From contig JBHGNT010000021.1 of NCBI GenBank assembly GCA_043228905.1, positions 11,718,001 through 11,782,000 on the forward strand: 64,000 bases of DNA, in the 5' to 3' direction. A program made the translations under genes and the position numbers. Below, one piece after another: positions 26,940-60,712 of the stretch. The stretch comes from Azolla caroliniana (lineage: Eukaryota; Plantae; Polypodiophyta). Position 1 is the stretch's first letter. The number at the start of each line of letters is the position of its first letter. A model generated the notes under the pieces. The model searched no databases, had not been told where the DNA came from, and saw only the letters and a list, made by a program, of their open reading frames with translations.

Positions 26940-29900
26940 TGTTGAGATATCCAGCTCAACTACACACTAGATGTCGAATACGGGTACATAATAGACGTAT
27001 TCACATTGTCCCATTGGACTAGGCCACATTTATAAATATTGAAAGGGTAGTTGCCCTAGTTCAAATTGTATTTAAACTGAACTTTGTAACCTACTTGTGT
27101 TGTTGTTGCCATTATAACTTCTTGATAATAATACAACTACACAGTTTGTGCCCATTGGTCTCTCGCTCACTCTCTGCACTTGAATCTTGATCTTGTTTGC
27201 TAATACAATTGCCTTTGCTTCTCTTGTCAATCAGTTCCTCTTGACCTTGTTCAACATCAACAAGAAGATCTTCATCATATAGAGTGCTGGGTTTGTTCCG
27301 CATCTGACAATCACTTCCAACATATGGTATCGGAGCTTGGTTCTGTATTCTAGTGGTGATCGTCTTCTGTCTTCAACAATACTCTTGCATTCACCCCCTT
27401 GAAGATCTCCTAGTTGATTTTACTTGATAGAACAAAATCTAAGATTTCAGCTGAATTGAAATCTCTCAGCCGGAAACTGCCACAAGATCACACTCTGTGA
27501 GAAGAAATACTTGAAAAATTGCACTCCAATAAGCTAGATCACCCTTGAAGTAGGCCAACCGGTTGTACTTTGTCTTCGTGATTGTAGCTGCTTGGAGTGA
27601 GATTTTTCATCGAAACAGTCTCAATCGTGCTTCATCAGGTTAGGCGGCAATCAGACAGGTCATTCGACGTTGTTCACTTGCTCATTGTAACCACCCAAAG
27701 CAGATCAGGACTAAAGCACAACCTCGTCTGCGTTCCATTAAGCTAGGTGGCATTCGGACAGGCCAGTCAATGTTGTCCATCCACACGTTGTAGCCACTTG
27801 GTGCAGGATCGATGTCCGAAAAGGCACAAACGGCATATAATCTGCTATCAGCTTTGAAATTGGCATAAGGAATCGGATCACCAATAACCGTGCCCAATCC
27901 GGCTAGGCATTATTTGGGAAGAACAATCGATTCTATCTCTCCAACTGCCATAGTCACTCCGGATAGGTTTAGTTCAGCATCATTCGAAACCTAATCGGCT
28001 AAATAAGCAAATTCAGGTCCAATTCGGTTAGGCACGAATTGGCTGTAGCCACTCTGAATCGAACACATCGACAGTTGAAATAAATTTGGCTCGTGTCCAA
28101 TCTGTCTAGAACAAATTCAGGTGAGCCAACAAGCTGCACACCCTACCACCATTTGTAGCCGACTCCAAACAAAGCTTACCAAGCCGAAATAGAAGGGCAT
28201 CAACATTTGGCTCATTCGAGATGAGTCTAAGGAAGTTCAATGGATCGAACTTCAACTTCTGGAAAGGACAAGTGCAGGACTATCTGATTGTCAAAGGTCC
28301 GATAGATCTGATTGAGTTCGAAAATCCCCCAGAAGAGTACAAGCCGAATAAGTGGACAAAATTAGATCGGATTTTTCGGGTCACCATTTGGATGCACTTG
28401 TTGGAGTCAGTGTACTTCACAATGCAATCATGTTCAATGGCCTTCCAACTCTGGAAGACATTATCGGACACCTGTAAAAAGAAGGTCGTTGCAACAAAGA
28501 TATATCTGATCTGGTGCCTCTACAACCTTCGGATGAAAGAATCCAATTCGCTCCAAGCACACATAAACAAATATGAGAATTTGAGTTCCCAATTGTCGGC
28601 TCAGGGAGTCACTATAGAAGATGAGCTAAAAGCTTTTGTATTGATGAGCACCCTGCCTCCGACTTGGGAAAACTATGTCACCATTGTATGCAATGCATCC
28701 AGAACGACCGTAAGCTACTCCGAATTGAAGAGCTCAAATTTGACGGAAGATGCTTTGAGGAGATCATTCGTTCACAATTCGGCCAATGATGCTTTTGTAG
28801 TACAGAGTTCGGATGACTGACTGAACAACAAGAGAAGAAGTTCTTCTCGATCGCCGAGTAATCCGCTGTTGTGAAGATTTCTGGCCATAAGAGAAAGAGT
28901 GCAAGGATGCACACGAACTAGGGCTTATGTACATAAAACATATATGTAAATACCGAGGTCTAATAAGTACTAGACAAAGATAGTTTATTCGGTATTTTAA
29001 GGATCCCATAAAAAGAGGGCAATAATAGGATATGATGGGAGTAAATCGTGTGAGGGATTGCTGATAGGAGTGGCTATCATCAATGCTGATGTATCCAACC
29101 TCCCCTTTGTGCTACAAAAGGGGAGGAACGGATCTAAATCGGGGAGTCGTGTTTTGGGGAGAACGAAGTATTGCTGGATTTCGGAGTGGTTAGCTCACTT
29201 CATTTTCTTGGGTTTCTTGTTGTCGTGCTGTGAGGCCTCTGTTTTGGAAGCTCGTGTACTCTTGATCAGAGGCTTCCTGGATTCGCTGCGTGTGTGTAGA
29301 GCTCGAAGCTCTGTTACCGACCGAGCCCGGTTATACTTCTCTTATTATAAGTTAATCAACTATTTTGTTGCTTTCGGATTTTCCTGTGTCTTTCAGTTTT
29401 TGCTTGTATTCTCGTCTTTTCCCTCTCATCTGTGTGTGCATACCCGAGTCTGCTAGCCCGTGGGGTCATTGCTTGCTACCGGGCGGCAGTTCCGGAACAG
29501 AGTACGCATCCGAGCCCGTGTGCTCATCATCCGGCATCCGGAGACTGTATGGATTGGATATGTGTCCGTGCCGCGCCCCGACGAAGTTACCCAGAAACGA
29601 TTTGGATAATCCCCCTTTCGCTTCCCTTACCAGCTCCTTAGTTCGAGACCCCAGTGGTCTTGGCCATTTCGACACATACTTGCGGACTTTCGCGACACCG
29701 CGAAGTCGGAGCAAGTCTAAAGGAAGCCGAATATTCAACTATTGCAAAAAGCCTGGACATGTCAAGGCCGACTGCCGCGCCCTTAAAGCAAAGAATGATA
29801 AGGCTCAACGAGCTGATCTAAATTGTAGGCGACAAGAGGAGGTCAACTATGTCAGCTCATTAGTCGAAGTATTGATGGACAATCCGAACATACTATTCAT

Positions 29901-31134
29901 TGAGAACTCCGTCAAATTAGAAGTTTTGCTTACGACTAAGGAATCGAGCACAACACTCCTGAATTTGGGTACTTCCAATCATGTGACCCCTCATAGATCA
30001 CAATTCCGACAATATTTGGCCCCGCATTCCGACTCAGTCCGAGTCAGAAATTCACAACATTGCACTATAATCGGAATCAACACAATATTGGCACTACATA
30101 ATGTCTGACACGTACATGAGCTCTCAAGTCAGCTGATCTCAGTCAGACAACTTGACGAAGACGACATCCGTGCTGGCTTCTCATCAGGAGGGTGCACACT
30201 CCACAGGGGGGAACCTCTTGCTTACTTGAGGTTCAAAAGTACCATCTCTGTACCCATTACACGTCACACGTAGAGAGAGTGGGTTGTTTCCAGTTGATAT
30301 CCTTGTGTCATCACTATGGCACATACGACTCAGACACTTAGCAAGATCAACATAACACATTCATCTAGAGCAAGATACATCCCCAAACTCTCCTTTTCGA
30401 ACCACCAATTCTGCAAGCACTGCCAATACAGCAAACAAGCCACAACCTCACACTCGACGGAAGCACCAAGTGAATCGAGTCTGCTTGATTTGGTCCATTT
30501 GGACATCTGTGAGCCGATGGCACATTAGCCTCTTGGTGGTGTCTCCTACTTTGTTAGCTTCATCGACAATTCAACTCGTAAGGTGTGGGCATACCTGGCT
30601 CGAACCAAAGATCATGTGTTGTCGATCTTCTAGGAATGGCTTGCCATGGTGGAGAACTAGTCCGGACGAAAGCTAAAATGCTTATGGTTCGACAATGGAG
30701 GAGAGTTCAAATCAAAGGAATTTGTCAGATTTTGCCAGCAACATGACATTCGACGTGAATATACAATAGCTCCAACACTCTGGACTGTCGGATGGCTTCT
30801 AGGCAGAAGCCCTACTTATGACAATACGCATAATCAATATGTTGCCAAGTAGCCTCTAGAACCTCAAATACCTCAAGATTTATGGACCGACAAGATGCCG
30901 AATTACAATAAGCTGAGGATTTTCGGAAGATGATCGCTGGAAGCTCGAACAGAGGTCCAGGAAATGCATTCTCCTTGACTATGGACCAGACGGTGAAATC
31001 AAATACTGACTCTATAGATAGATCACATGAAGTTCGAACGTTGTCTTCAATGAGTCGGTCGTTCATAAAACGGACGAAAGGCCTATTGAAGTCCGAAGGG
31101 TCACTTTCTTGGAACTGTTGACCCTTCATGACGG
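26940..31134 (+). mobile_element. Ty1/copia element, 5' portion (5' LTR 26940-27322, PBS, gag, protease, integrase)
   Basis: LTR tgttgagatatccagctcaac...ccaaca; PBS TGGTATCGGAGC 27325-27336; gag LRKFNGSNFNFWK; knuckle NYCKKPGHVKADC; integrase LVHLDIC; ends at LTR insertion at 31135. Confidence 0.9.
28867..29697 (+). mobile_element. Gypsy-family solo LTR with 4-bp TSD CCGC
   Basis: tgttgtgaaga...tcgcgaca; CCGC at 28863-28866 and 29698-29701; interrupts copia gag. Confidence 0.9.
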
Positions 31135-31770
31135 TGTCCCAAAAATTTGTGTACGTGCGTGCTTTGCACAAGCGGGACCACTGGGGTCTTGGAATGGGGA
31201 GGATGTTTTCGAACTTGTCGAAAAGAGGACGATGTTAATGTAAGAGACGGGGAAACCAATGCCACACTTGAAAAGATCAAAGGTTGTACACTTGAGAAGT
31301 AGATAAATAAGAAGAAGATAAAGAGGAATATTATATAATTGATGATGATGTTGATGATCTCCCAAAGAGGCCCTACTAGGGTTTTTATAGGTCTGTCTAT
31401 CCATGCTTCTAACATGCACAAAACCATGGGCTTGGTTGAACCCATGGTTTTTGCGCACATGGATTTTCTTGTGGCATGCATAAAACCATGGGTTTGAAAC
31501 CATGGTTTTGTGCACACGGTTTGTACGATTGTTTTTTATGCAATTTGAATATGAAAAGGAAAGCATTTAAACTATTTAGTAGTAGCCCTAGTGGTAAGGT
31601 AAATGTCTTCTATTTTGGAGGTGCAAGGTTCAAAACCTACTTGCACCCCTCTATATGCATTCAAATGCCTCTAAGCCCTAGGTTTATTTTCATATGTACA
31701 AGTGTTTGTGTAGTGTGCATGGAACTACACTTTTTCTCCCACTAGACACACCACATCATGGCATCCACCC
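31135..31770 (-). mobile_element. Gypsy-family LTR fragment carrying a tRNA-like cassette
   Basis: Terminus tgtcccaaaaatttgtg...gcgggaccactggggtcttgg homologous to the other family termini; rc TATAAAA 31383-31389; right boundary uncertain. Confidence 0.7.
31577..31650 (+). other. tRNA-like Pol III (A/B box) sequence inside LTR
   Basis: TAGCCCTAGTGGTAAGG ... GGAGGTGCAAGGTTCAAAACC; aligns with rc of 42658-42728. Confidence 0.65.
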
Positions 31771-31789
31771 CCACCAAACTGTACATCCT

Positions 31790-32043
31790 CCGGCTGGATA
31801 AAATTGTCAAACTTCTTATACCACTACTAGGGTGCCTGCTTTAGCCTATAAAGACTCTTCCCGAGTCGACAGACTAGATGCTCTTGGCCAGCTGCGACGA
31901 AACCTTTCGGTTGCTCCATGTAAATTTCCTCCTCTAGGTCGCCATGGAGGAAGGACGTCTTCACATCTAACTGTATAAGCTCCAGGTCCTCGACTGTCAG
32001 TATTCTGAGTAGGAATTGAAGGGTGGTCATTTTCACCAATGGT
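31790..32043 (-). pseudogene. Inverted copia RT fragment
   Basis: VKMTTLQFLL...QLDVKTSFLHGDLEEEIYMEQPKGF...LKQAP, same family as 37960-38190. Confidence 0.9.
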
Positions 32044-33299
32044 TTGAGATCCCGAGCTCTATCATTCTCTCTGTTTCTCTCTATACTGATTTGAGAGGAA
32101 GGTGAGGCCTTTGCTCGCGTAGGAAGCCCTTGTGCTCCCAACCAGAGGCTCATCGTTCTGTGTGTGTGTGCAGAGCTAGAAGCTCTGTTACCGGCCGAGT
32201 CTAGTTGTATTTTTCTCTATTTTAAGATTAATCGATTATATCTGTTGCCTTTCGGAGTTTACTGTGTCTTTCGGTTTCTACCTATATTCTCGTTTTTGCT
32301 CCCTCGTATTTGTGTGTGCATACCTAAGTGCGCCAACCCGTGGGCTCGTTGCTCGTTATCTGACGGTTGTTCTGGAACAATGTACGCGTCTGAGCCCGTG
32401 TGCTCATCATCCGACATCCAGAGACTGGTTCGGATCAAATACATGTCCGGACTACACTCCGACGAAGTTATCCGGAAACGATCTAGATAATCTCTCTCAC
32501 GCTTCTGGTGTGAATAGTTAAACCCACAAGGACATGGATTTATAGTGCAGGGTGGTAGCGTGTTCCAATGTGATGGGGTGAGTCAGGGCACAAATTCTGA
32601 ATTTTTTGAGGAGATTTGGCTTATGGTGGCGTGTTTAACGGTCCGACACATTTGGATTAGGCGTTGTAAGTTTGTTTTTCAGCAACAAAAGCTCTCGTGT
32701 GGGGAGGTGATGTTAAATATTTGGTTTGAGGTTGTGGCTTGGTTGCGGGGTCGATATGATTCGATTAAGGGGGAATTGGAAGAAACAGAAAGGGCAAGGT
32801 CAAAGTTCTTGTTGAAATGGAATGATTCTCCCATGATAGTCAAATCTTCGGCGAGGCCTAAGTGGAATTACTTGGCGCTTAGGTGGCTGTTTCCACCGAT
32901 GGCTCCCAATATTGTACATGGGTTGTAATTATGTATGTATAATTGAAGCAAAAGTGGGTTAATATAGTCATGTTGCCTGGATAATGTTGCTAGAAAAGAG
33001 TTAGTTGGGAGATGTAGAGTCGGGGTAAAAAAGGGGTTTATTTCAGTTTTGTTGGAGTTAAGGGTCGGGTAAGTTTTGGCTCTTTTTATTTGATAGTTTT
33101 GTAGTTGTTCCTCCAAGTTGTATATGTTGATCCCATTGTGGATTCGAGTAAAATCTGTTGTAATCTATTTGCTAACTAATGCGAGGTAGTGTGTTTTTGC
33201 TGAAAAAAAAATCTCTCTCATGCTTCTCTTATCGGCTCCTTAGTCCGAGATCCAGGTGGTCTCGCTCGTTTCTATACATACCCACAGATTTCTGCGACA
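32044..33299 (+). mobile_element. Gypsy-family LTR 3' part, interrupted by a LINE
   Basis: Homologous to 29300-29697; ends ...tctgcgaca at 33299. Confidence 0.8.
32507..33210 (+). mobile_element. 5'-truncated L1-like LINE with poly(A) and ~17-bp TSD
   Basis: ORF2 C-terminal-like VRHIWIRRCKFVF; A-tail 33203-33210; TSD atctctctca(c/t)gcttct at 32490-32506 and 33211-33227. Confidence 0.88.
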
Positions 33300-33720
33300 C
33301 TGTACCTGAGCAACACCCCTGAGGTGCCTTTCAAGTGCCTTAGTATCCACTTGATTGCTGTTAGAGACATTAGTTCCCTTAGGTCTATACACATCATTAA
33401 AGTAATTGTCAATGTTCTTTCCCTCACTATGTATTGGGTCCCAATGATTTACTACGTGCAAATGGGTATATCAATGGATCTCCCGTACAATTTTTGTTTG
33501 ATTCAGGAAGCTCACACAACTTTGTGAATGATCGTTTGGTTCAGATATGGGGAATCCAACCCATTGTAAGTGATCACACCTATACGGTGCACTTGGCTGA
33601 TGGAAGAGTACAATACATCAACGGGGCGATTCATTCATTAGGAATTTCTATTGATGCTTATATAGAGGAAGTATACTTCCATGTACTGAATCTTTGTACC
33701 GTTGATGTAATACTTAGAAT
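33300..33720 (+). pseudogene. Gypsy aspartic protease fragment
   Basis: LRANGYINGSPVQFLFDSGSSHNFVN...VHLADG...VDVIL. Confidence 0.8.
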
Positions 33721-33725
33721 CCAAT

Positions 33726-37065: not shown

Positions 37066-39655
37066 GTTTCCATGCTCCAACACTCTGGACTATCAGATGG
37101 CTTCTGGGCAGAGGCCCTACTTACGGTAGTACACATAATCAATATGTCGCTGAGTAAGCCTCTAGGACTTTGGATACCTCAGGAACTATGGACCAGTAGC
37201 AAGCCGAATTACGACAAGCTAAGGATTTTCGGGTGCGAGGCATACACCGTCATATAGAAAGACAATCACCGCAAACTTGCACCAAGGTCCAGGAAATGCA
37301 TTTTCCTCGGTTATGGACCATATGACAAAATCGGCTACCGACTCAGGGACCCCGAACACAGACAGATCATCCGAAGTTCGGATATAGTGTTCAATGAGTC
37401 GGCCATCCATCAATTTGCCGAAAAGCCGACCGAAGTTCGAAGGGTAATTTTTTTGGGTGTGCCAACCCTTCATGAAGGCACAACACACAACACGAGGTCG
37501 GCTTCATGGGTAGCCAAAACCTCTAGCACTGACTCGACTCTGCACGACTTGGCACAACCGAACGATTTGGATCTTGACCATCCGATTGAGACACCCGATG
37601 CGACTAGTTCAGTCATACCTCAAAGATCCAAGAGTCTCTCACAACCCCTAGAGAGATACTGTCCTGGTATCATCTTTACGGACGCCGGAGATCTGACGTC
37701 ATATGAAGAAGCATCATCGGCATCTGCCGATTCGGCCACCTGGCATCTGGCAATGGAGTCCGAGATGAACTCCATTCGAGCAAACCAAACTTGGGACTTG
37801 GTCAAGCTCCCGAAGAATCGATATGCTCTTTCGTGGAAGTGGGTTTATCGAGTCAAATAGACGTTTGATTCGACCACCCCAAAATTCAAGGCCAGAATAG
37901 TAGCTAAGGGTTTTCGACAAGAATATGGCGTTGATTTCGATGAAATATTTTCACCAGTGGTGAAAATGACAGCGCTTAGACTCTTGCTCGGCATCGTGGC
38001 AGCCGAGGACTTATAGTTGATTCAGCTAGGTATCAAAACAACATTACTCCATGGGGATCTAGAGGAGGAAATTTATATGGAGCACCCGAAAGGCTTCGTG
38101 GCACCCGACCAAGAACATCTAGTTTGCCGACTCAGGAAGAGTCTTTACAGCCTCAAACAAGCACCACGATAGTGGTACAAGAAGTTCAACGACTTCATCC
38201 AGTCGATCGGCTTCTCAAAGAGCAATGAGGACCACTACCTCTTCACCAAAACAACTCGAGATGGATCTCCCATCTTCCTCATCATCTACGTGAACTCGTT
38301 CGGCAATTGCAGTTGAAGTTTGCCATGAAGGACCTCGGTCCAACAAGACACATTCTCGGCATGAAGATTAGTCAGAATCGAAATCGAAGAAAATTGTTTC
38401 TGTCCCAATCTATCTATATTAGACGTGTCCTCGAACACTTCAACATGCAATTAGGAAAATCTGCTTCGACCCCGCTCCCCATTAGCCTTCGGTGTCTTAG
38501 CGAGACTGTCCGACATCCGGCTCGGAGGGGGAAATTATGAAGTTGGTACCATATGCACCAACAGCTGGCTCCCTGATGTATGCGATGGTCGCGATGCGGC
38601 CTGACATTGCTCACGTCGTAGGAGTCATCAGTAGATTCATGCACAATCATGGTTGATCGCATTGGAACATAGTAAAGCATGTGTTCAGATATCTGGTGGG
38701 CACAAAAGACCATGGCATCCTATTCGGTTCGAATGACACATCTGGCGTAGTCGGATACATCGACTCGGACTTTGCCGGATGTGTGGATAGTTGAAAATCG
38801 ACAACCAGATATTGCTTCAAACTTGGCAATGGAGCGAGCTCGTGGAAATCGAAACTCCAGGAGTGCACTGCTACATCAAAAACCAAGGCCGTATACGTAG
38901 CCACGTCAGACACGGCGAAAGAAGCTTTATGGCTCCGTCGGCTCGCATTCACATTTCGACAAGTCAAATCCAACTCGGCTCCAGTTGTCTATAGCGACAG
39001 TCAAGGTGTTCTTGCTCTATCGAAAAATCCGGTTCATCACAATGCCTCTAAGCATATCGACGTTCGATATCACTTTGTTCGGGATTGCGTCATGTCAGGG
39101 AAAATCGACCTTGAGAAGATACCTATAGCCGATAATGTCGTAGATGGGATGACCAAGTGTCTTTCGGCGGATCGATTATGATCCCTTTGGCACCAGATGG
39201 GCGTAATGAAGAATTAGTATGATTAAGTCGGACACTTATGATGTTTTCGAACAATCGACTTTGACACTTCGAAGTTCGGCTTTACTTTCCCCAACTCGGC
39301 CACTTCGGCCTCTTGTTTTTTGAAGTTCACCGACTTGAACGAAATTTCAATTTGCTCAAAAACTTTGCATCAAACTGTATTATACATTTATTTCGATTTA
39401 CAGATTTTCGATGTATACGCCCATTACGGGGGAGTGTTGAATGCGGGTCTCTAATGGACGTATATATAAACTGACTTTGTAATCTAGTTTTGGAGATGTT
39501 GAAAATATAGTACATCTTGTGCCTAACGTCTCTCTCATGCATTGCGGTTTCTGTTGATATTGTTGTTGCTATCAATCCACCTTGCTTGTATCTATTTATG
39601 ATCTTCTCTCTAGAAGAGTGTGATTTGTTCCGCACTAGCGGCCGCGTTTCCAACA
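37066..39655 (+). mobile_element. Ty1/copia 3' portion (INT-RT-RH, PPT, 3' LTR 39435-39655), host of the preceding element
   Basis: MLQHSGLSDGFWAEAL, AMESEMNSI, KHIDVRYHFVR; PPT acgggggag; LTR tgttgaatg...ccaaca. Confidence 0.9.
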
Positions 39656-39990
39656 CGGGGTCTTGGACTAAAGGAGCTAGTGAGAGAAGGAAGGTTGTTC
39701 GGATCCTTTCCGGATAACTTGCCTAGATCGATTTCTGAACATGTATCCGATCCAGATTGATCCCTAGGTGCCGAACGGTGAGTGCACGGGCTCGGAGGCG
39801 TATATTGTTCTGGAATGGTTGCCGAATAGCAAGGATGAGCTCACGGGCTCACTCACTCAGATACGCAAACTCAACAGGAATAGATCAGAGACAAGGACAC
39901 GGGAAAGCCCATAGACACGAAGAAACTTAGCGAATTAATGATTAATAGGAAAACAGAAAAGATTACAACTGGACGCGGCCGGCAGAAGAG
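39656..39990 (-). repeat. Gypsy-family LTR fragment
   Basis: Reverse complement similar to 29300-29660 and 32165-32500. Confidence 0.75.
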
Positions 39991-41811: not shown

Positions 41812-42185
41812 AACCAATACTTATGAGACGTGATGTGATTGGATGCCTCTAAGTCGACAAACTATACATTTTCCAAATTTGAGGTGCTTGTTTGGCATGA
41901 TGCCGTCATTGAATTCATCGAATTCACTCTATGCCACATCATGAACATTCTGCTACGATCGTCGTAGTCGGAGTTTGAGGCATAGTTGGTGAGTTGTCGG
42001 CTTGTGAAGGTCGGCTCACTCTTCTTCTTCCGACACTTTGCCTCGTAATGGCCGAATTTGCATAGTATTTGCACTAGACAGAGTTGTTTTGCTGGTTGGG
42101 TCCGACATGATTCCTCCCCCATCTTCCAGACACTCCCCATCATACGTTTGAAACGTCTTGCTAGTAGTAGAAGTTCTGTTCGCGT

Positions 42186-43217
42186 TGTCGTGAAGATTTT
42201 CAGCAATGGTGTGAAAATCGCATAAAACATACGAAATCTAGTATGAATAATATAAAACAATAATAGTGAAAATACTATTTTACATAAGTTTAATATCTTA
42301 GTACAAAAAGATGGAGGTCTTCAAGAGCTTTCGAATGCACTTTACTACATAAGAAACGGAAATCTAAGTCTCAAGTTATTTGGGTAGGAAGTTTGCAAAG
42401 GAAAAGAGAAAGATAAAACTATGAGATATCCCACATAGACAGGGCAAATACGAATCTCACCATATATAAGGTAGAGCAAAAGCTGTTATCTTTGTGTCTA
42501 TGTGTGGAGCATAGAGAGTTCAAGGGGACTTGAACTAACCTACTTGGATGAGTTGGTGTGGCCTAGCTACTTGTAAAAGTTTTTGGCCAACCAAAACTGG
42601 CGGTGGAGCCGGTGAGCCGGTGGTAACTAGCGGCGGCAACTGTGCATAAAAGAAAAAGATGTAAGCAAGACTTGAACTTTGCACCTCCAAGATAAGAAGC
42701 AATAGGCTTACCATTAAGCCAAATCATTTCTTTAGGGATTATATTTTTATCATTACAACTTTACATGTAAATTGTCATATTAGAGCTTGATTGAGTGACA
42801 TGTGATGCATGAGTGCTAAATGGCAAACATGCATCACATGCATTCCATGCATTCCATGCATTCCATGCATTGTATGCATGTCTTGTACCCTCACATGCAT
42901 CATATGCATGGGAGCATCTATAAAAGGGTGGATGAAAAAGATCAGAGGGGAGCGATGTATTAATCAAGAAATTAAAAGTAAGAAATTCGTTATCTAATTG
43001 ATGTATCAATCTTGTTCTTCAAATCTAAAGTCAAGAGTTCAATATTAATCTCTCTCAATCTAAAGTCAAGCGTTCTATCTTATCTCAAGCTCTCTCTCTC
43101 TTTCAATCTATCTGAAATACTTTCTCGCTAAAGCTTGTGCAAACTTCGAATCCTTCCGGTCCAGAACCCCGGCGGTTCCGCCTCATGATCCACACGTAGT
43201 GACGGATCTTCACGACA
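42186..43217 (+). mobile_element. Gypsy-family solo LTR (1032 bp)
   Basis: 12-bp terminal inverted repeat TGTCGTGAAGAT...ATCTTCACGACA; imperfect 4-bp TSD GCGT/ACGG; TATAAAA 42919-42925; interrupts copia gag. Confidence 0.88.
42658..42728 (-). other. tRNA-like Pol III (A/B box) sequence inside LTR
   Basis: rc TGGCTTAATGGTAAGCC...TTGGAGGTGCAAAGTTCAAGTC; aligns with 31577-31650. Confidence 0.65.
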
Positions 43218-44377
43218 ACGGGGTTGCTCTTGGTTGTGGTGACCTTGACCGAATCAGCCTCTTCTTCCACGATGTTGCCCTCTTCCTCCATGAAAATTGG
43301 AATAGAGCATGTGTCCTTCTTGCACATTGCTTCTTGTCCGAACATGATTTTCTTCGACCAGTAGCATCAACTAGAGATCGAAGAAGGAGGGAGGATTCTC
43401 CCTCGCAAGGACGGCTAACCTTATTGCATCGAACCGAGGCACTAAGCTGCCAAGGCATATCTCCACCATTTCATCGTCGTCAATGTTGACATTGATCGAC
43501 CCGAGGACATTTCATAGCTCCTTGATCTTCAAGGTGTAGCTGCCGATTGATATGTCCCTCTGTTGAATATTGTTCCACTCTTGATGGAGTTGAAGCTTTC
43601 GTACGATCGTGTTGGCCATGAATATCTTTTTGAGATTCCCCCACACGTCTTTTGGCGTTTTGGCTTCTCGAATATAGCCAAGCATATGACCATGAAGGCA
43701 TGATGCAAGGCAATACAACACACGACTCGTTGCTTACTCCCAAGTTGGATGGTTGACATGTGTGGGCTTGGGTTGATTTTCTTGTGCTCCTTTAATATAA
43801 CCCCAATAACCTTGGTCGACAAGGTATTGCCGCATCTTATACTCTCAAAATGCAAAGTTGTTTCTGTCGAGTTTCTCAGTAGGAAGAGCGCTTCCCATCT
43901 GAGTATTCATGTTGACTAATTGTATTCAGTGAGTTTTGTTCTTCATCATCTCTTGATACGAGTTGTGTAGGTTGCTGCAATAGTGATCGACTGGTTCTTC
44001 GTGAACATAGGCTTACACACAACACACATGGATGGGCTTGGATTAGGCTTCCAATTGCTCTGATACCATGTAAAGAATCAGATATGATTTTGTGCAGCGG
44101 AAGGGATATGTGTGTGTGTGTGAGAGAGAGACAGACAAATAGACAAATAGACAGACTATATAGAAAACAAGAAAACTGTATTAACAAGAACAAGATAGAC
44201 ATACTTTATAGAAAACAAGAAAAACTGTATTAACAAGAACAAGAATGAACCAGTCGTTACAAAGAGAAGGAGAAGGTGCTTATGTAGTCACCTTCTCTCT
44301 ATGTTCTCTCACTACAACATCTCTTACAAAACGGTGGCGACTTAACTAACTACCTACTAGATATGTGTCATAGAACA

Positions 44378-46267: not shown

Positions 46268-46925
46268 TGTCAAAGTTAATACGCGGAAGCTTTGACAAAC
46301 CAGTTTATCCGGATAGCAATAGAAACATAGAATGATGGTTTAATAGACGCTTAAAAATAGAGAATACATAGGAGAGACAAAGAGAGCAGCAAGCATGAAC
46401 TCAATTCAAAATAATAACATTATGTACATACTGTGTCCTATATAACACCTTTTATACAAGTCCTTAAAAGGACTGACAAAAGTACTGACAGGTACTTCAA
46501 TGCTCATACGAGCGACTGACACTGACTCCCAAAAATATGCCTACTTACTAGGCTAGATTCATAGGCCTCTAACGGCCTACCGATTACAATCCGATCCGGC
46601 TCCTAATTCCGGATACCATTTGCACACCGATCTGGTTCTCCGTTTCAGATACCGATCTGGCTATGGATTATTCAGCCGATCTGGATCCGGGGGAGCTTGT
46701 TCGCTCAACACTCCCCCTCAAGCTCAATTTGAGGTCGGATCATTGTGTCGGTGTCAGTGTCTACCGGTCTTTCCCTCCGGCTCCTCCTGGCATCTTCCCG
46801 CCTGGCTCGCGCTCCTTGTCCGGTGTTGTTCGTCTTCCCGCGACCCATCCGGTTCCGTGCATATCGAACCTTCTCAGTCAGCTTGTTTTCTCCTTCAGCC
46901 CTTATCAGCTCCCTTGTTGTCATGT
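46268..46925 (-). mobile_element. Copia 3' LTR (46268-46710), PPT and 3' internal region
   Basis: rc homologous to 36420-37065; PPT rc ctccccctc 46711-46719. Confidence 0.9.
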
Positions 46926-49240
46926 TTTCGTGAAGATTTCAGGCCATAAGGGGAAACATAGCCAAATGTGTGTGAATGCAGGCGTGGCACAAGTGCACCC
47001 CCCTTTTGTACTAAGATGTGTAAATACTAAGTAATGATAGGGTTTTGGTGATTACTAGGAAGTTAGGCTTTAATAGATGCTTTAATATCACGTAGGTGGA
47101 GAAGAATAAAGGGGGGATAATGGGAGAAAATCAAGAAGAGAATCTTGGGGGGATAACGAAAGGTCATTAAACCTAATGTAACGGTCATCCCTTACGCTAT
47201 AAAAGGGGCGGCCCAGACTGTTTTAGGGGATGTTGGAGGAGAAGATAACTTTGTCATTCAGAGTACCAAAGCTCTCTCTCTTTATCTCTCTCTGATTACG
47301 ATCGACGACTGAAACTCAGGAAGGTGCATCCTCTGCTCGCGTCAGACGCCCGCGTGCTCCCGACAAGAGAATCATCACTCTGTGTGTGTTTACTATAGAG
47401 CTCAAAGCTCTGTTCTCAGCTCAGACCGGTTGTACCGCCCACATGGACACAAAGTACAAGATTGTGAACCGGAAGGTGAGGACAATCACGACTCCCTTGC
47501 CGAAGGGCAGTTGGGAATGAATAAAGGGGGTCGCTACCAACTTGAGCTTGCGAGATCTGGTCGGCATAGGACACCGATTCACCGACAAGATGCTACGAGA
47601 ATTGAAGATCGGTGGGGGTGGCTTCCTACTGCCGGCGGAAGAGGACCAATTCAGAAGAATGCTTGAGAGGCATGGAAAAGCCTTCACATTCTCGCACGGA
47701 GAGATCAGGTGCATTGACCCGACCATTGTCAAACCGATGGTAATATTCATGGTACCGCACATGTCATGGAGTCTCAAGCTGATTCAGGTACCGAGAGTTC
47801 ACATCCCGAAGTTGATGGAGCTATTGAAGCAGAAGGTTGAGATGGGTATGCTCGAGCCGTTGAGTGCCTCTTAGTCAAATCGGTGGGTTACAATACCAAA
47901 GACGAACGGCTCACTGCACTTCATTTAGGACTTGCAACCGGTCAATAAAGTGACCATTCGCAATACGAGAGTCGGGCCGTCAATCGACGAATTCACGGAA
48001 GCCTTTTCCAGAATATCCATATACTCGGAGTACAACCAATTCCAACTAGTTGTCGAAAGCAAGGACATTACGATGATGCGAACTCCTCTTAGCCTAGTTC
48101 GGGTGTGTACCCTACCGCAAGGAGGGACCAATTTGGTGGTGCACATGGTGAATGCGATGAACAAAGTATTGAGGGACTGCATCCCGGACATCACCATACC
48201 ATTCCTGGGCAACATTCCTATCAAGGGGTGTCTGGAGGACACAAAGGACGAGTTGATCGGGGCAAACGGATGCCGAAGGTTTGTCGCGGACCATATTTCC
48301 GTCTGCCAGAAGATATTGTAGAGGCTTGAGGGTGCTCAACTTACCTTATCCAGGGAGAAGTCAACTTTCGGGCAATCGGAGATCTTAGTGGTCGAAAACC
48401 GTCCCCATCAAAGGTAGAGGCCATCTCGGCCATGAAAGAAGAGTGCGGATCCGTCACGGAGGTCCGATGGTTCTTGGGAGCATGCGCATTCTACCATATC
48501 TGGATTCCGCACTATGCGCATATCACCGAGCCACTCTACGGCTTGCTAAAGAAAGGCAAGAAATACGAATGGGGCGAAGAACACGCGGAGGCAGTGCAGA
48601 CACTAAAGGAAATGTTGATGGCTGCACCGCCTCTACGGAAAGCCATATACAAATTGGACACTCCGGTTTACATCACAGTGGATACCAGCCTGATTGGAAT
48701 CAGATGGGTCATAAATCAGGAAGATGAGAACGACGCGCGTTTTCCCATCCGGTTCTGTGCGAAGGTGCTGAACGAGCAGCAACGAGGATACACCCAAGTC
48801 AAGCGCGAACTATGGGGCATCCTTTCGGTGGTTATGGTCGACAAGGACTACTCAATCAGGACAGAAGTGATTATAGAAACGGACTGCCTAGCGATTCTCG
48901 GTATGGTTTTCGAATGCGCAATTCCAGATTTGGCGATGCTTAGATGGATTGCGTACATCAAGTTCCTGAACCCGGAAATACCATAAATTTCCAAAAAGGA
49001 CAATGCCATGGCCAAAATGCTTTCAAGAGAGAGGTTCGAGAATGAGGACGACATGATTTCGGAAAACGAAGAAGTCGGTGCGGACTTCTTCAAATCGGCC
49101 TGGATGAAGGGAAACAGGCGATGCACTCCGCCCCTGAACGAGTTCGACGAGAACGACTACGATGGGGAGTGGCTTCTAATCAGAAGATTCCTAAGCACGA
49201 TGACAGTGGACGGGTCATGGACAAGGGAGGAAGCGAGTCG
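46926..49240 (+). mobile_element. Internally deleted Ty3/gypsy element (partial LTR fused to RT-RNase H)
   Basis: LTR start t(t)tcgtgaagatttcaggcc; RT DLQPVNKVTIRN/LPQGGTN, RH ITVDTS/ELWGI/IETDC; same family as 61481-64000. Confidence 0.88.
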
Positions 49241-52200: not shown

Positions 52201-52727
52201 CGCAAGTAGGCCCCTACAAAGACGTAACCCCACTATATGCCGAAAGCGTGAACATGCGGGCAGGACTGCCCGACGAGGAGGTGGATTGCTACCTTGAAAA
52301 GAAACCAAGGATAGTCCCTCTGTTTGAAGTGGACATGAAAGAAGTGGTATCTCCATACATCGTGCAGACGGAAGAGGTCGGCGGGGAACCGGATAAGGAT
52401 GCAATCCGGGAACTACGGCAAGCATAGGAAGCCTTGGAATGGGAAATGCCGGTATCCTAACGAGTAAAGGCGTCCCTACTAGAAGAAGTAAATTTGGGCA
52501 CCGGAGAGGAAGCACGTCCGGTACACGTGGCCAAGGAGATGTCACCGGAAGACAAATCAGCAATGATAACATTATTAAAAGAATTCCGAGACGTTGTCGT
52601 GTTGTTACGTGCGTGTGTGGAGAAAGGCGGGACCACGGGGGTCTTGGACTAGGGAGTGACGGAGCGTAGGAAGTCGTACTTCACCGTTTCCGGGGCATCC
52701 CAGAAGCACACCGGAAGCAACCGAAGG

Positions 52728-52762
<35 letters not shown>

Positions 52763-53862
52763 ACGAAGCGAGTGTGGAGGATCCTCCTCTGATCCTGAGT
52801 CTTTCGTTTGCCGTCGTCCCCTCGCCCCCACCAGCTTGTCATCCCGGCTTGCCGTGTCAGTCTTCGCTACTTTGACGGAGCTACCGAGATCTACAAAGCG
52901 AGTGTGGAGGATCCTCCTCCGGCCTCTCTTGCCATCCCCTGACTCCGACCCTGTGCAGTCCACTAGGCACTTGTCACCTCGTTCCCGGCACCTCCCTTGT
53001 GCCGTCTTTCGCTTCCTTCGTTCGGCACCGCCCGTGCCGAACACTGTCCCGTAGTCACGCTTTGATCCGGCCCGCGATGGCCACTTACGAGACTCTTATT
53101 CCGTCCCAGGTGTGCCTTTCCGGCCTGACACACCTCCCCGTGTTTGCCCCTACCGGCTCCTTCCGAAACCTCGTGTTATCGGGTCCCGTTCCCTGCCGCC
53201 ACCGTCCTTCTCCCTAGGTCTCACGTTGCCACGTTGGCCGAACTGCCGGAGTCTCCGGATCGGTGTGAGGGTCCTATAGGACCGGACTCCGTTTCCATGC
53301 TTGCCGAGATCCGGGTGTCTTTTGTTTGAGTCCCTCCCGGACTCTCCTCGTGTCTTCCGCGTAGTAGGGTCCCGTTTCCCGCCGCCACCTTCCTTCTCCC
53401 TCGGTCTTATGTTGCCACGTTGGCCAAACAGCCAGAGTCTCTGGAACCGGTGTGGGGATCCCGTAGGACCAAACTTCCTTATGCTCACTGACCTTGCCGG
53501 AAGCTCCGATTTGGTTTGTGGCCGCCTCGCCGGCCTGATACCTCCTTGCCGTTCGTCGCCTCTATCGTCCGATCACGTTCTCCTGCCGCCACCGATCCTC
53601 CCTATAGGACTCACGTCGACTCACGCCGGATCGGTGTGAGGATCTCCGTAGACTGCCCATCCGTAGCCCTTTTGCCTTCGTCACCTCGCCGCCACCGTCA
53701 GTATCTTGGTCTTACGTCGACCGCGTTGCCGACAGCCGAAGTCTCTAGAACCGGTGTGAAGGATCCTCCTTGGGCCTCTGATTTGTCTTCCTGACCCTGT
53801 CCCGGGTCGTCCCTTTCCGCATGCCGAGAGTGCGGTTTACTCTGCACCTTCTCCCGTGGTAC

Positions 53863-54819
53863 CTACGTACCGTCTCCTCGGCCTCTTCGTAGGCCGGCTC
53901 TTTTCCTCCCTCCCGGAATGGTCATCCGGGAGTCCGCTCTGCCCGGTTCTCGTCTGGGCCACCGCCCCTTTTTGTGGTGTCGGTGGATAGCATCCGCTCT
54001 GTGATCAATCAAGCCCCGCTTGAGCTTGATTCTCCAATGTCCGGAGTTTCGGCTCCGATGCTGACCTTGCCAGACTCGTTCCGAACCTTTAATCACCTTC
54101 CTTCGAATTCGGGCCTCAACGCCGACCCTTGCCAACTCCCTTTGTCGCTCGGCCTCTTCCTGCTGTGATGGCACGCCGTCACGCCCCTTCCTCTTAGCCT
54201 TCTTGGCTCGCTCATCGTCTAGCCGTTGGCACACCCTTCCAACCTTCGACCAGTCCTCCGTAAGCCCATTCGCTCCGTCATCGTCTTCGAGCTCAATCCC
54301 GATGGCATCCCGTTCCGCTCGGTCGATCGACCTGACGAACAATAGGACCTTGTTCGCCCCCACCAAACCTTGTTCCCGCTCCGGCAGCCGAGCAAGCCGT
54401 CGCTCGAACTCTCGGAGCGCCTTGGTCGCACCCCGGTGGGGCTTTGCTGATGCTACCCACTGGTCGAAGTCATGTCGACCCCGGCTCTTCTGCCGTCCTC
54501 CGTATGCCTTCAGGAGCGCCTCTTCGAAGGCCTCCCATGAACTATGAGCCTCATGGAGCTCCTTTACTTCCGCATGCATCCGGACAGCTACGACTCGATA
54601 GAAGAACCCCAGCCTCAACGCCTCGTCTACGCCACGCTCCTCCATTTCCGCGTTGTAGGCTTCCAAGTAAGATGGGACTTTGTCCCCGTTGAAACGACCA
54701 ACTCTTTCGACCACTTGCTCAACCGCTTGTTGCGCTGCTTCTCGCCTCATCACCACTCATGCCGACTCCAACACCACTTCGGCCACCATCGCCGCGAGGT
54801 CGTCGTCTTCCGACTCCAT
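53863..54819 (-). pseudogene. Gag-like ORF of the gypsy element
   Basis: VGRFNGDKVPSYLEAYNAEM...SWEAFEEALLKAY; upstream ATG at 54819 separated by one in-frame TGA. Confidence 0.8.
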
Positions 54820-54834
54820 CCTCCCTTGCCGCCT

Positions 54835-54852
54835 TTCACGTCGGGTTCACCA
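54835..54852 (-). promoter_or_regulatory. Primer-binding site complementary to the tRNA-Trp 3' end
   Basis: TTCACGTCGGGTTCACCA matches the recalled plant tRNA-Trp(CCA) 3' 18 nt; lies 4 nt from the LTR. Confidence 0.85.
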
Positions 54853-54988
54853 AATATGTCGTGTTGTTATGCGCGTGCGTGGAGAAAGGCGGGACCACGG
54901 GGGTCTTGGACTAGGGAGTGACGGAGCGTAGGAAGTCGTACTTCACCATTTCCGGGGCATCCCAGAAGCACACCGGAAGCAACCGAAG

Positions 54989-55028
<40 letters not shown>

Positions 55029-55745
55029 TTAACACCGACTCACGCACACACACACACATGCCGACCCGACTCACGCCCTTATGTACAGGAACCGTAGGAA
55101 AGGGGAAGCACCTGACACCTACAAAGACGCGAATATACACAGACAAACGTAAATGTATATATATAAAGGAAGAATACATTCCCGGCTTCGAGCCGGACCA
55201 AGGTAGGTTACAACAGTCGTCTGTTGTCAAGTCGCCGTCGGGGAGCTCTCGGCTCGTCGCACCCAGCGGGGTCTGGCACAGGAGGTCGAGCCAAAGCAAA
55301 CCCTAAGCAAAACACGAAGGGGGAAGAAGAAGAAGAAGAAGAAGAACTAACCCTAAATCTAACGGTATACCCTCTAACGCAAAAATGGGCAACCCTTTCA
55401 CAAAGGGCGCTCCCTTCCTTTTATAGAACAAGGAGAGGGATGCGTTACAATGTGGGATAAATCCCGACTTAACTACTCTTCGGCGCCATAAAGGCGCCCT
55501 CGTTATTCACACTAAATGTACATGGGTGCGTACACACGCTGCACCCCGCCGATGTAGCCAATGTTTCCTGGTTTCCGCCTCTGGCCGAAATTCTTCACGA
55601 CAACGTATTCGCCCGATCCTATGAAGATATGCGGGGACTTCACCCCCAACTCTATCAAGACCAGATTCACCTCAGCAAGGATGCTAAGTCAGTGGCACAA
55701 TGACACTATCAGATGAACCCAAACTACGCGGCAAGAGTAAAGGAG

Positions 55746-56132: not shown

Positions 56133-57922
56133 AGGAGGAAATTGACAAGCTACTCTGGGTCGGCTTTATCCGACCGGTGAAGAAAGTCACTTGGCTAAGT
56201 CCAAATGTTGTAGTGCCGAAGAAGAATAGCAAGATCTGTGTCTACGTGGATTACCGGAAATTGAATGCGGCAACGGTTACCGACGCATTTCCGCTTCCGT
56301 TTACGGATGGAGTTTTAGATGCGGTAGCTGGGCACGAGGTTTATAGCTTCCTCGATGGTTTCAACAGATATAACCAAATAAGGATGCACCCGGACGATCA
56401 AGAAAAGACAACGTTCGTGACACAATGGGGAGTCTTTGTAGCAGTTGTAGTGACGTTCGGACTCAAGACGGCGCCGGCAACCTTTCAGAGGATTATTATG
56501 GAAGTATTTGGAGAATTCATACCGGCATTTATGCAAGTATTATTGGATGACTTCGTGGTATATAGCCAGAAATGGGAACATCTCGACCATCTCAAGTTAT
56601 GCTTGGAAAAGTGCAGAGGATACCGGTTAAGCTTAAACCCGACAAAATGCGTCTTCGGTGTGACCAGCGGCACATTGCTGGGTCATATTGTTAGCAAGGA
56701 AGGGATTGCCGTGGAACCGGATAAGGTCAAGGCTATTTTGCAAGCACCGACACTGACGACCACCAAGGCTTTAAGCCGGTTTTTAGGACAGATCCGGTGG
56801 CATAGCCGGATGCTCCGGTACTTGGCAGACCTCGCCACGCTACTATACGTAGTTGTACACCGGACACCATTTAAATGGACGGATGAAGAGGACAAGGCTT
56901 ACCGCGCACTCAAGGTAATGTAGTCACAAGCACCAATGGTACAACCCTTGGACTGGTCAAAAGAGTTCCATGTCTTCGTGGACACGTCGGATATCGCAAT
57001 CAACAACGTACTCATGCAACTTACCGAACCTAAGTGGTACCGACCGGCATACTACGCTAGCTGAAAGCTGTCAAAGGTAGAGTGATATTATTCCACTACT
57101 AAAAGAAAAGCCCTAGGAATGATATACAATGTCACCAAATACCGTCCTTATTTGTTGGGCCGCAAGTTTTCATTCTATGTAGACCATTCAACGCTTTTAT
57201 ACTTGGTCTCAAAGGCATCACTCATCGGCAAGTTGGCCCGGTGGACATGATTATTACAAGAATTTGAATTTGAGATCTATCACCGGCCAGGTATACAACA
57301 TGCGGTTGTCGATTACTTGAGCCGGTTAGAATCCAGAGAGATCGGTGACGGTGTTCAAGATGAATTTCTGGATGCCGCATTGTTTAAAATTATAGCAAAA
57401 ACCACAATAGATGGGACAGTCGCGAGCGAGGACAAATGGCTAACGAATATGCACCAATTCTTAAGCACCGGACTACCCCTAGACGGGATGAACCGGGATG
57501 AACGTAAACAGTTGGTGGTGCAAAGCCGGCACTTTTGTCTAGTGCAGGATACACTGTATCATAAAGGGGTGGACGACATATGGCGGTGAACGTTCTGGAG
57601 TGATGAAAAAGACACCATTTTATGGGAGGCGCATTGTGGGGTCGCCGAAGGACATTATGTCGGAGAAGCTACGACAAGGAAAATATGGCGTAGCGGCTTA
57701 TGGTGACCAACGACACTAAAGGACTCGGTCTGATATACGAAGGAATGTGATATGTGTCAAAGAATGGGCCAGCCAACGGAACAATCATGCATGCCGCACT
57801 AGCCGATACTACCTCTAGAGCCATTCCAGAAATGGGGGCTGGACTTCGTTGGACCATTCAAGCCACCGACAATGCGAACCGGCAATAGGTACATAATTGT
57901 CACCATAGATTACTGTACATAA

Positions 57923-58669
57923 TGACGGGAACTCAACGCTCCTTATACGCAAGGCTCGGCCACAACCGAGCTTAGAATCCTACACAGAAAATGGGAAATA
58001 AAGCACGACACGAAGAAGAGAAGAGTACGCAGGATGTTTACGTGGAAAACCCAAACTAAGGGAAAAACCACGGCAGCCCACAGGCTGCAAACTATCATTA
58101 TGTTAGAATGTACAATAGTGAGTTCACCGAGTCAACGACCTCGTGCTCACAATCTTTGCCACATGCGGCGGTTACAACAGAGGCAACGACCTCTTTCTCT
58201 CTCTCTCTCTCTCTCTTTGTACACAGTTACACGCTCTAATCTCGTGCAAAACAGGAATGACAACGACAGTTACTAAAAGTTTGCCCTAAGTCATATTTAT
58301 ACTAATATGACTTTTCAGCTATTTACAAATATAGCCTCGATGGGCTCTCAGAAACATATTTACGAATATGTCTCTTCGTCCGGTTCTCACCGGGCCTGTA
58401 CCATCCGGTTCTCCGTAGCCGGGTACTCCTCATCCGGTCTTCACCGGGTCTGTATCATCCGGCTCTCCGTAGCCGGGTACTCCTCATCCGGTTCATACCG
58501 AGTCTGCACCATCCAGCTCTCCGTAGCCAGGTACTCCTCATCCGGTTCATACCGGGTCTGCACCATCCGGCTCTCCGTAGCCGGGTACTCCTCATCCGGT
58601 TCATACCGGGTCTGCACCATCCGGCTCTGTTCTTCTCTCTTCCCATCTGGAGGGACCTGTCTCCCAACA
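57923..58669 (-). mobile_element. Copia-type solo LTR, TSD CA(T/A)AA, with 54-bp tandem array
   Basis: tgacggg...cccaaca; removal restores integrase DYCTKWVEAKAL; TTTACGTGGAAAACCC motif. Confidence 0.9.
58373..58628. repeat. 54-bp tandem repeat, ~4.7 copies
   Basis: tcctcatccggttcataccgggtctgcaccatccggctctccgtagccgggtac repeated. Confidence 0.92.
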
Positions 58670-59868
58670 CAAAATGGGTGGAAGCCAAGGCACTACGTGA
58701 CAATACCACGACATCGACGACAAAGTTCCTGTACAAGTACATCTGGTGTCGGTATGGATGTCCAATCGAATTAATCAACGACCAAGGTGGACACTTCCTC
58801 AACCAAGTGGTGGAAAGCCTAACAACATTTTATGCGATCGTACACAAGCGAAACACCCCTTATTACCCACATGCCAATGGATTGGCCGAATCCACTAATA
58901 AAACTCTGTAGAACATTCTCTGGAAGATTGTCAATGAGAACCGAACCGATTGGGATACAAAGTTGCACAACGCGTTAAGGGTTTACCAGACGACATACAA
59001 AACAAGTATTTGGACAACACCATTCCGGTTAGTGTTTGGTCTCGAAGCGGTGATGCCAATAGAATTCCAAATTCCAAGCTTACGAATACAGGTTCGGGAG
59101 CGGCTAAGCGAGGAGGAGTCGGAAAAACTCCGGTTAGCAACATATGTGAGCTGGAGGAGCACCAAATAGCGAGCCTAATGTAGATGGAACTTGAGCAATG
59201 ACGAAGGAAAGCCTTCGTTGACCACCACCGGAAGGGTAATGAGAAGATGTTTGGAATCGGCAAGCCGGTACTAGTCTTCCACATCCGGATGGGCAAGATG
59301 CCGTGGAAGCTACGGTTCCGGTGGACCGGACCATATTGGATAACACGAGAGTTCAATGGCTCATATCAGCTCGGAACGTTAGCCGGTTAGGTGTTGGACA
59401 AGTGGGTAAATGGGTTCCGACTTAAACCATATTATGGACCCATGCCACAGAACCCATTTCATCAACTGGAGAACAATGCAAAAATAGGCAGTGGCAATCA
59501 GTTGGCCGACAACCATGAAGAAAAATAGACAAGGGAGCCTGGGTTACCAGAACTAGAAAAAAGAAAAAAAACATCATGCAAAGGCCAGGAACGAACGAAC
59601 ACCTCGATAAGGTGTGTAGCGGCTATTTAAAGCGTAGTTAAAGTGCACCACGTGTCACATAGTTGCTATTATAGTACATGACGTGCATGCGTGGGAATCA
59701 AGAAAGGCGCCAAGCATGGGAACACGAAACCTCCACCTCGTAGAGTCTCTCTCATTTCGCAAACACAGAGCACTTAGCACACAAAGGACAATACAATTGA
59801 GCAGACGAGCACAAGAAGCACACACAAGCACATCGACCCTACCCACCCCCGCAGAACTAGACGACGAG

Positions 59869-60712
59869 ATGGAACCTATGGCATTTTCCGAAACAACCAA
59901 GAAGTGGTTCAACCAACATGGGTTGGGAGGCTTCCTGAGGATAGCAGAGGCACCGCCGCACGACGAAGTAGAAGAAGTCATGCACAAAATCGACACGGAA
60001 GTCATAATGGAGGAAGTAATCCGCGCTCTAATCGGATTGCCGGAAGGGGGTATCTACTCCATCGAGAACCCTTCTCCTGAAACACTAAGCAAGTTTTTTG
60101 GCGAGTATTCCCTCGCCAGCAAGGCTCATCGGACACTGGGCGTCGAGGACCCCCTGTTCAGAGAAGTAGCTCGTGTCCTCCACGAGTATGGGTTCATGTA
60201 CCCCCGACCCCCGGCAATGCCAAAGAACAAAGCTAGTTTCATCATTGCTACATACACAGGGGTGCAAGTGGATTGGTCGGTAATCATCGCCGATTGCTTG
60301 CGGACGGCGATAGAATCAATGTAGAAAGACAAGAAATTATGGACGTCCGTGGCTCAATGGCTGACTCTCTTGGCGCCCCCGGTGGAGTTGGTAAAGACTA
60401 AGAAGCGGGTTCGAGTAATGGAGACCACACCCAACAAACCTTCAAAACGACAACAACTCTTGGCCAAGCACACGCCCGGATGGAAAGAGGGCAGTACCTC
60501 GCAGAAAGGGAAAGAACCACCTAGCCAAAAGAGGCAAGCTGAGATAGAGACACCGGTGGAGCCATTAGTAAGGCCTCTTAAAATCAAGTTGCGCTGACAG
60601 GAACAAGAGTCGGACCTCTTGGCAACGAAGATCAATATCAAAACCCAAGAGGAGGAGACGGAGGAAGACCCTGCTGATAACCTCGTACATCGCCAGAAAC
60701 GTAGCGACGCGG
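59869..60712 (+). pseudogene. Extra 3' ORF of the gypsy element, function unknown
   Basis: MEPMAFSETTKKWFNQHGL...VDWSVIIADCL, reading on past one stop; downstream of integrase. Confidence 0.6.

What the first reader, a model, noticed from the sequence alone, without database searches (positions are those of the whole stretch)
28863..60712. A gypsy superfamily that appears to integrate at CpG dinucleotides (4-bp N-CG-N target sites)
Seen: seven independent insertions of related LTRs (termini TGTCG.../...CGACA) have these 4-bp flanks: CCGC/CCGC (28863, 29698), ACGG (31131), CTGT (33300), GCGT/ACGG (42182, 43218), ATGT (46922), ACGT/ACGT (52591, 55603) and GCGG (60709). Each has CG, or TG, at the central two positions. 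The copia insertions here show no such pattern (ATATG, AGGAG, CAAAA). Established: TG is the deamination product of methyl-CG. Inference: the integrase may centre on CpG, possibly methylated CpG, steering elements into old TEs; all seven sit in other TEs. Only two sites have a perfect two-sided TSD.
Basis: partly seen in the sequence, partly recalled or inferred. Interest (0 to 1): 0.85.

Follow-up and report, generated by a model that had tools for sequence, protein, structure and literature searches.

The report
Fern retrotransposons that insert at CG
A family of jumping genes in what is likely a fern genome sits mostly at CG dinucleotides, a habit already published for the moss Phygy lineage to which these elements likely belong; whether they sense DNA methylation is untested.

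Summary
The CG targeting is real but already known. All ten stated flanks are in the window. Removing 4 bp restores the host reading frame at the three two-sided sites. In 121 metagenome loci of the same LTR family, 70 of 83 unique flanks have a central CG against 3.75% background, and 9 more have CA or TG. The host is likely a fern. The elements have a Trp-type primer site, RT-RH-INT order, no chromodomain and no extra RNase H. This matches Phygy, for which Neumann 2019 reports 4-bp NCGN targets; a phylogenetic test against moss Phygy was not possible. What this adds is a likely fern occurrence and a finer, palindromic target (V-CG-B, mostly ACGT, T rare before CG). Methyl-CpG reading and steering into old TEs are unsupported. 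The integrase shows no reader domain, and flank CpG content equals the window average. CA/TG sites look like decay after insertion. The scan noted NCGN targets before in a fungal genome (e1-10582392).

The parts
28863..29701 (+). Solo LTR 28867-29697 with TSD CCGC/CCGC, inside a copia gag
31131..31779 (-). 3' LTR 31135-31763 with polypurine tract 31764-31779; genomic flank ACGG at 31131-31134, in a copia integrase region; rest of element lost
   Evidence: (71-72% to L064/L065/L077 LTRs)
32096..33303 (+). U5 half of an LTR ending at 33299; flank CTGT; one-sided; start approximate
42182..43221 (+). Solo LTR 42186-43217, flanks GCGT/ACGG (2 of 4 differ, CG kept on both), inside a minus-strand copia gag
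46922..49240 (+). 5' LTR start at 46926 (end decayed to TT), flank ATGT; broken RT-RH remnant from about 47430; right end lost
   Evidence: un-inserted host homolog in L033 reads GCGG at this site
52591..55606 (-). Non-autonomous element 52595-55602: 5' LTR 54857-55602, truncated 3' LTR from 52595 (97% alike over 166 bp), likely gag remnant (no Pfam hit); TSD ACGT/ACGT inside the pol of another gypsy element
54836..54852 (-). Primer-binding site of tRNA-Trp type, 4 nt from the LTR
   Evidence: one mismatch to the RSV PBS core of RF00467, E 0.044, below gathering score; same motif, within 3 mismatches, behind 32 of 123 family ends
60709..64000 (-). 3' LTR 60713-61406, polypurine tract from 61407, integrase (61487-62692) and RT-RH running off the window; flank GCGG
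13816..14630 (-).
   Evidence: (E 7e-9)
39649..39873 (-). Family LTR fragment cut by a copia LTR end; no terminus to score

Best explanation
These are Ty3/gypsy LTR retrotransposons, likely fern members of the Phygy lineage, that sit at 4-bp duplications centred on CG, likely because their integrase reads the CG bases directly and likely without needing methylation. Shown: 4-bp duplication, host-derived CG, a palindromic preference (A>G>C>>T before CG; C enriched one base outside), Trp-type primer site, and no chromodomain or other Pfam reader domain after the integrase GPY/F-like tail. Inferred from the foamy-virus intasome (PMC4005685): a 4-bp staggered cut kinks the target at its central pyrimidine-purine step, and this integrase would add base-specific contacts that accept CG and reject TA. 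The duplicated CGs would later be methylated with the surrounding repeat and sometimes decay to TG or CA. Any bias towards TEs would be a passive result of where CGs are dense.
For: U5-side flanks: 70 of 83 CG, 7 CA, 2 TG, 4 other (1 TA); background CG 3.75%, CA 6.8%, TG 6.9%; binomial p about 1e-85. U3-side genomic flanks: 12 of 15 CG, 2 TG, 1 CA (rows, with two degenerate-end rows counted by hand and one truncated PPT row dropped). Base 5' of CG over both strands: A74 G31 C28 T7 of 140, against 34% T in background CG sites (p 7e-20); C one base outside in 29 of 70 against 20% (p 3e-5). In four sequencing runs, listed loose ends pile at the LTR end or after ACG/ACGT; only 1 listed contig stops after the A alone (32 rows not shown). 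Ends next to the PBS or PPT do not show NCGN, so the CG is not part of the LTR. CA/TG sites have fewer CpGs in their own U5 (mean 4.0 vs 5.1, p 0.028) and lower flank CpG o/e (0.49 vs 0.78, p 0.04; both one-sided, n 9 and 8). Two un-inserted homologs read CG at decayed sites (window 46922; L106). Phygy: 186 elements, TSD 4 bp 100% (NCGN), tRNA-Trp 81%, no extra domain.
Against: No P. patens Phygy sequence was available, so membership rests on structural traits. Of 6 metagenome contigs with genomic DNA on both sides of an LTR, only 1 has a matching TSD; chimeric assembly through collapsed LTRs is my inference, not shown. The window end at 13820 has flank AAGA. The nearest-neighbour age proxy did not separate CA/TG from CG sites (p 0.14). 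Nothing here can tell a methylated from an unmethylated target.
Confidence: 0.78

Rival explanations
1. The integrase needs or strongly prefers methylated CpG, which steers the family into silenced repeats.
For: CG is the main methylated context, and CG methylation covers most genomic features in the fern Ceratopteris (PMC9477723 passages). All seven window sites are in TE remnants. At least 31 of 83 outside flanks match TE types of the window or close relatives (a lower bound). Some targets lie in CpG-poor DNA, o/e down to 0.12.
Against: No chromo, MBD or PHD domain in the window's integrase or five close relatives scanned; the C-terminus is a short acidic tail. TG, which mimics methyl-CG on one strand (recalled), is rare: 2 of 83. 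Ceratopteris is 85.2% repeats, so TE hosts are expected. Ginger1 transposons take CCGG/CCGT targets, with no mention of methylation in that paper.
Confidence: 0.13
2. The pattern reflects only DNA bendability: any central pyrimidine-purine step will do.
For: The foamy-virus intasome bends its 4-bp target at a flexible central YR step (PMC4005685). CG, CA and TG are all YR steps.
Against: CA and TG are each nearly twice as common as CG in the flanks, yet they make up 9 of 83 targets; TA makes up 1 of 83.
Confidence: 0.03
3. A separate fern lineage that shares the 4-bp NCGN target and Trp primer with Phygy but is not nested in it, for example from the wider fungal Ylt1-like group.
For: Named relatives are from Riccia and Adiantum; more distant hits include the fungus Smittium at 40%. 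No Physcomitrium name appeared in the 120 rows listed for either search.
Against: All testable Phygy traits match. Phygy has been annotated in a liverwort (PMC12885004), and the fern element groups with liverwort sequences (SH-aLRT 90-92).
Confidence: 0.1
4. Artefact: misplaced boundaries, or a CG that belongs to the element's own end.
For: Four of seven window sites are one-sided, and three termini are degenerate.
Against: Host frames are restored by removing 4 bp. PBS-side and PPT-side ends lack the motif. Un-inserted homologs carry the CG in L034, L080, L082 and L117 (other aligned homologs there differ at the site).
Confidence: 0.01

Closest known systems
Phygy lineage of non-chromovirus Ty3/gypsy elements (Neumann et al. 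2019, PMC6317226: passages, section 9 and supplementary file 5 read; Jedlicka et al. 2019, PMC6911290: passages)
   Same: 4-bp TSD with NCGN preference, tRNA-Trp primer, no chromodomain, no extra RNase H; nesting in other elements also reported
   Different: Defined in the moss P. patens and later annotated in a liverwort; here the host is likely a fern. The finer V-CG-B preference was not in the passages read. Phylogenetic identity is untested.
Ginger1 DNA transposons (Bao et al. 2010, PMC2836005, passages)
   Same: Gypsy-like integrase with GPY/F motif; 4-bp TSD centred on CG (CCGG 75%, CCGT/ACGG 24%)
   Different: Ginger1 is a DNA transposon with terminal inverted repeats and prefers CCGG; this family has LTRs, PBS, PPT and RT, and prefers ACGT
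TatI lineage (PMC6317226 supplementary file 5)
   Same: 4-bp TSD, tRNA-Trp primer
   Different: TatI has an archaeal-type RNase H (100%) and no NCGN note; none was found here
Prototype foamy virus and Ty3 integrases (PDB hits; PMC4005685 passages)
   Same: Same integrase family by sequence (E 3e-17 and 4e-14); the PFV target bends at a central YR step
   Different: PFV favours YR steps in general rather than CG; the position aligned to PFV Ala188 is Glu in 43 of 43 closest relatives here

Membership tests
Phygy | Ty3/gypsy domain order RT-RH-INT | tested here: met
Phygy | No chromodomain | tested here: met
   no chromo hit at E 0.1 in P0004 or relatives; short acidic C-terminus
Phygy | No archaeal RNase H (extra domain) | tested here: met
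   single RH; RVT_3 hits in two relatives overlap that same RH
Phygy | 4-bp TSD with NCGN motif | tested here: met
Phygy | tRNA-Trp primer-binding site | tested here: met
   one search match to the RSV PBS core; that RSV primes with tRNA-Trp is recalled; no plant tRNA-Trp sequence was retrieved
Phygy | RT/RH/INT group with P. patens Phygy in a tree | not testable with these tools
   reference FASTA and element table too large to read; tree has no moss reference
Phygy | Length 7.7-10 kb, polyprotein filling the interior, no extra ORF | tested here: inconclusive
   no complete autonomous copy in the window or loci
TatI | Archaeal RNase H present | tested here: not met
   RT-RH only 23% identical to the window's other gypsy RT, whose Tat/Athila label is recalled
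Ginger1 | DNA transposon with terminal inverted repeats | tested here: not met
   LTRs, PBS, PPT and RT present
Methyl-CpG-reading retroelement (as copia-MBD, PMC6673714, search listing only) | Encoded methyl-CpG-binding domain | tested here: not met
Fungal Ylt1-like lineage (PMC2864245 passages) | RT/INT clade membership | not tested
   resemblance of RT motifs recalled; only a Smittium hit at 40% seen

The most novel reading that the evidence does not exclude
The Phygy-type integrase reads 5-methylcytosine in its own target (symmetric mCpG), with no reader domain. It would be a DDE integrase that selects methylated DNA through its catalytic complex, shared by a moss-liverwort-fern clade and perhaps by fungal relatives and Ginger1.
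Probability: 0.13. Interest if true: 0.8.

Novelty: new member of a known kind. Interest (0 to 1): 0.3.

Why it matters
As it stands this extends a briefly reported moss trait to a high-copy family in a likely fern and sharpens the target motif. Plant LTR integrases with real sequence specificity are rare: Neumann 2019 names Phygy as the one exception in its survey. The invariant Glu at a known target-contact position gives a residue to mutate. Whether methylation matters can be tested, because a P. patens line without most CG methylation has been described. If methylation were read, the element would home to silenced DNA without a chromodomain, which would be new.

Tried and rejected
No whole genome is held for this window, so no genome-wide two-sided TSD census could be made. 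The protein Atlas gave no result. Viral contigs held no relative. Searches for a real tRNA-Trp gene found nothing. Paper searches on the PBS sequence gave only a gypsy-PBS/miR894 table with no amino acid named. GingerRoot was checked and dropped: 6-bp GC-rich TSD, not CG-specific (PMC6839031 passages). The truffle paper (PMC12581995) and Vendrell-Mir 2020 (PMC7466625) passages had nothing on target sites. Read laying on the whole LTR was swamped by internal variants; depths there are not copy numbers. The excess of CA over TG (7 vs 2) reverses on the other LTR end (1 vs 2), so it was not pursued. A CG bump at offset -15 (10 of 83) is one of 28 offsets tested and was not pursued. The careful tree did not finish; the quick tree is cited. 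No structure prediction was run, since it could not decide the methylation question.

Full report
Setting. The window is plant DNA. A VHS-GAT (TOL) gene at about 22.2-25 kb has its best named matches in Adiantum ferns at 74-76% identity, against about 57-64% for named seed plants, lycophytes and liverworts. The host is therefore likely a fern. From 27 kb on, my calls found only a stack of nested copia and gypsy remnants. No whole genome is held.

Observation. The seven insertions share U3 and U5 ends. There are two solo LTRs (28867-29697, 42186-43217), one non-autonomous element with both LTRs (52595-55602, minus strand), two 3' LTRs next to a polypurine tract (31135-31763; 60713-61406 with pol running off the window), one 5' LTR start (46926) and one U5 half (ending 33299). 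An earlier count gave 31769 for the end of the 31135 LTR; one search corrects this to 31763. At the three two-sided sites only removal of 4 bp restores the host frame, so the duplication is 4 bp and the CG is host sequence. A profile scan found two more pieces. The end at 13820 has flank AAGA, which breaks the rule unless it is the primer-site side; its last eight bases equal a common PBS-side spacer. The fragment at 39649 has no end to score. Copia TSDs ATATG and AGGAG are confirmed as 5 bp.

Outside test. Of 123 ends, 32 were followed by the primer site, 1 was too short, and 90 had genomic flanks; 7 duplicates were dropped, leaving 83. Where two starts overlapped (L107, L114), the inner one was kept. 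Central dinucleotides: CG 70, CA 7, TG 2, and one each of CT, TT, TC and TA. Background in the same flanks was CG 3.75%, CA 6.8%, TG 6.9% (p about 1e-85). On the U3 side, 15 genomic flanks gave 12 CG, 2 TG and 1 CA. The target is palindromic. The base 5' of CG was A 74, G 31, C 28, T 7 of 140, though T precedes 34% of background CGs, and C is enriched one base outside. ACGT is the commonest 4-mer (21 of 83). Contigs of four public runs laid on the window's LTR end stop either at the end or after ACG/ACGT in nearly all listed rows (32 rows not shown; alignment may extend over mismatches). Caveats: 119 of 121 loci come from one block of assembly ids, and top LTR hits are 70-86% identical to the window's, so this may be a related species. 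Only 1 of 6 contigs with genomic DNA on both sides shows a matching TSD; I attribute this to chimeric joins across collapsed LTRs, which would not alter the immediate junction, but I did not show it.

What the elements are. The pol at 61487-64000 has RT, RNase H, an H2C2 zinc finger and an integrase core, with no chromodomain, MBD or second RNase H. Named relatives are from Riccia and Adiantum, with a fungal hit at 40%; in a quick tree the window's RT-RH sits among unnamed metagenome proteins within a fern-liverwort group. The primer site matches the Rous sarcoma virus PBS core with one mismatch (weak E-value; the tRNA-Trp identity of that primer is recalled). Neumann et al. [quoted passage not shown] Their table gives 186 elements, TSD 4 bp (100%) NCGN, tRNA-Trp 81%, no extra domain. 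Jedlicka et al. 2019 report mostly 4-bp TSDs for Phygy and Phygy nested in Tcn1, and a liverwort genome paper lists Phygy. Every Phygy trait I could test is met. The defining phylogenetic test could not be run because the reference files were too large to read; those files may also hold finer target data that I did not see.

Mechanism. In the foamy-virus intasome the target is bent at a central flexible YR step, and Ala188 and Arg329 contact target bases (PMC4005685). CG is a YR step, but bendability alone fails: CA and TG are commoner than CG in the flanks yet rare as targets, and TA was used once. The integrase therefore likely reads the bases. The residue aligned with PFV Ala188 is Glu in 43 of 43 close relatives; a role for it is inference. 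CA/TG sites look like later decay. Their LTRs have fewer CpGs and their flanks lower CpG o/e (p 0.028 and 0.04, one-sided, small n), though a nearest-neighbour age proxy was not significant (p 0.14). Un-inserted homologs read CG at the window's ATGT site and at L106. This suggests the sites were methylated at some time, not that methylation was needed.

Methylation and steering. Nothing here separates methylated from unmethylated targets. Flank CpG o/e has median 0.76, range 0.12-1.63, n 77, like the window's 0.77. At least 31 of 83 flanks match known TE types, but Ceratopteris is 85% repeats with CG methylation across most features, so this is expected. CG density is 2.7-fold higher in the TE block than in the gene-side 27 kb. 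That gives a passive pull towards CG-rich repeats, not specifically old ones.

Novelty. The trait is in print for Phygy and, among DNA transposons, for Ginger1 (lead from e1-10582392, whose fungal claim I did not check). My searches listed no paper whose title or abstract start describes it in ferns or tests methylation; of the 18 papers containing 'Phygy' I read parts of three, and subscription journals are mostly missing. Verdict: new member of a known kind, interest 0.3.

Noticed in passing
Read laying on window 54780-55680 (table 5c): A head-to-tail junction LTR end - ACGG - LTR end appears in runs X1, X2 and X3. This fits a second element re-using the CG of an existing target duplication.
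   Followed up: no
L107, L114, L117, L034, L037: Family members sit inside the LTRs of their own family, including at the CG within the terminal 8 bp. The CG-rich LTR ends supply their own targets.
   Followed up: partly
L064 1-3707: Tandem array PPT-LTR-PBS-interior-PPT-LTR-PBS of a 2.35-kb unit of this family with no obvious coding region.
   Followed up: no
window 31135-33299: A minus-strand 3' LTR, an inverted copia RT fragment (31791-32043) and a plus-strand U5 half lie side by side, which suggests a local rearrangement.
   Followed up: partly
window 22166-25011: VHS-GAT (TOM1-like) host gene with AG/AC microsatellites upstream, followed by three 171-bp tandem repeats at 25128-25646.
   Followed up: partly
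window 782-6867: Near-complete copia element with about 90-93% alike LTRs and TSD ATATG.
   Followed up: partly
window 11356-12093: Long inverted repeat with about 340-bp arms at 90% complementarity, MITE-like or hairpin.
   Followed up: no
window 57926-58650: An insertion with 54-bp tandem repeats interrupts the integrase of the host gypsy element; ends and TSD not examined.
   Followed up: no
proteins P0345, P0356: Distant relatives of this integrase carry a PHD finger (PF00628) or a chromodomain (PF00385) by precomputed Pfam.
   Followed up: no
window 54836-54852: The primer-site complement matches abundant conifer small RNAs annotated as miR894 and mapped to gypsy PBS (PMC5846777 passage).
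   Followed up: no
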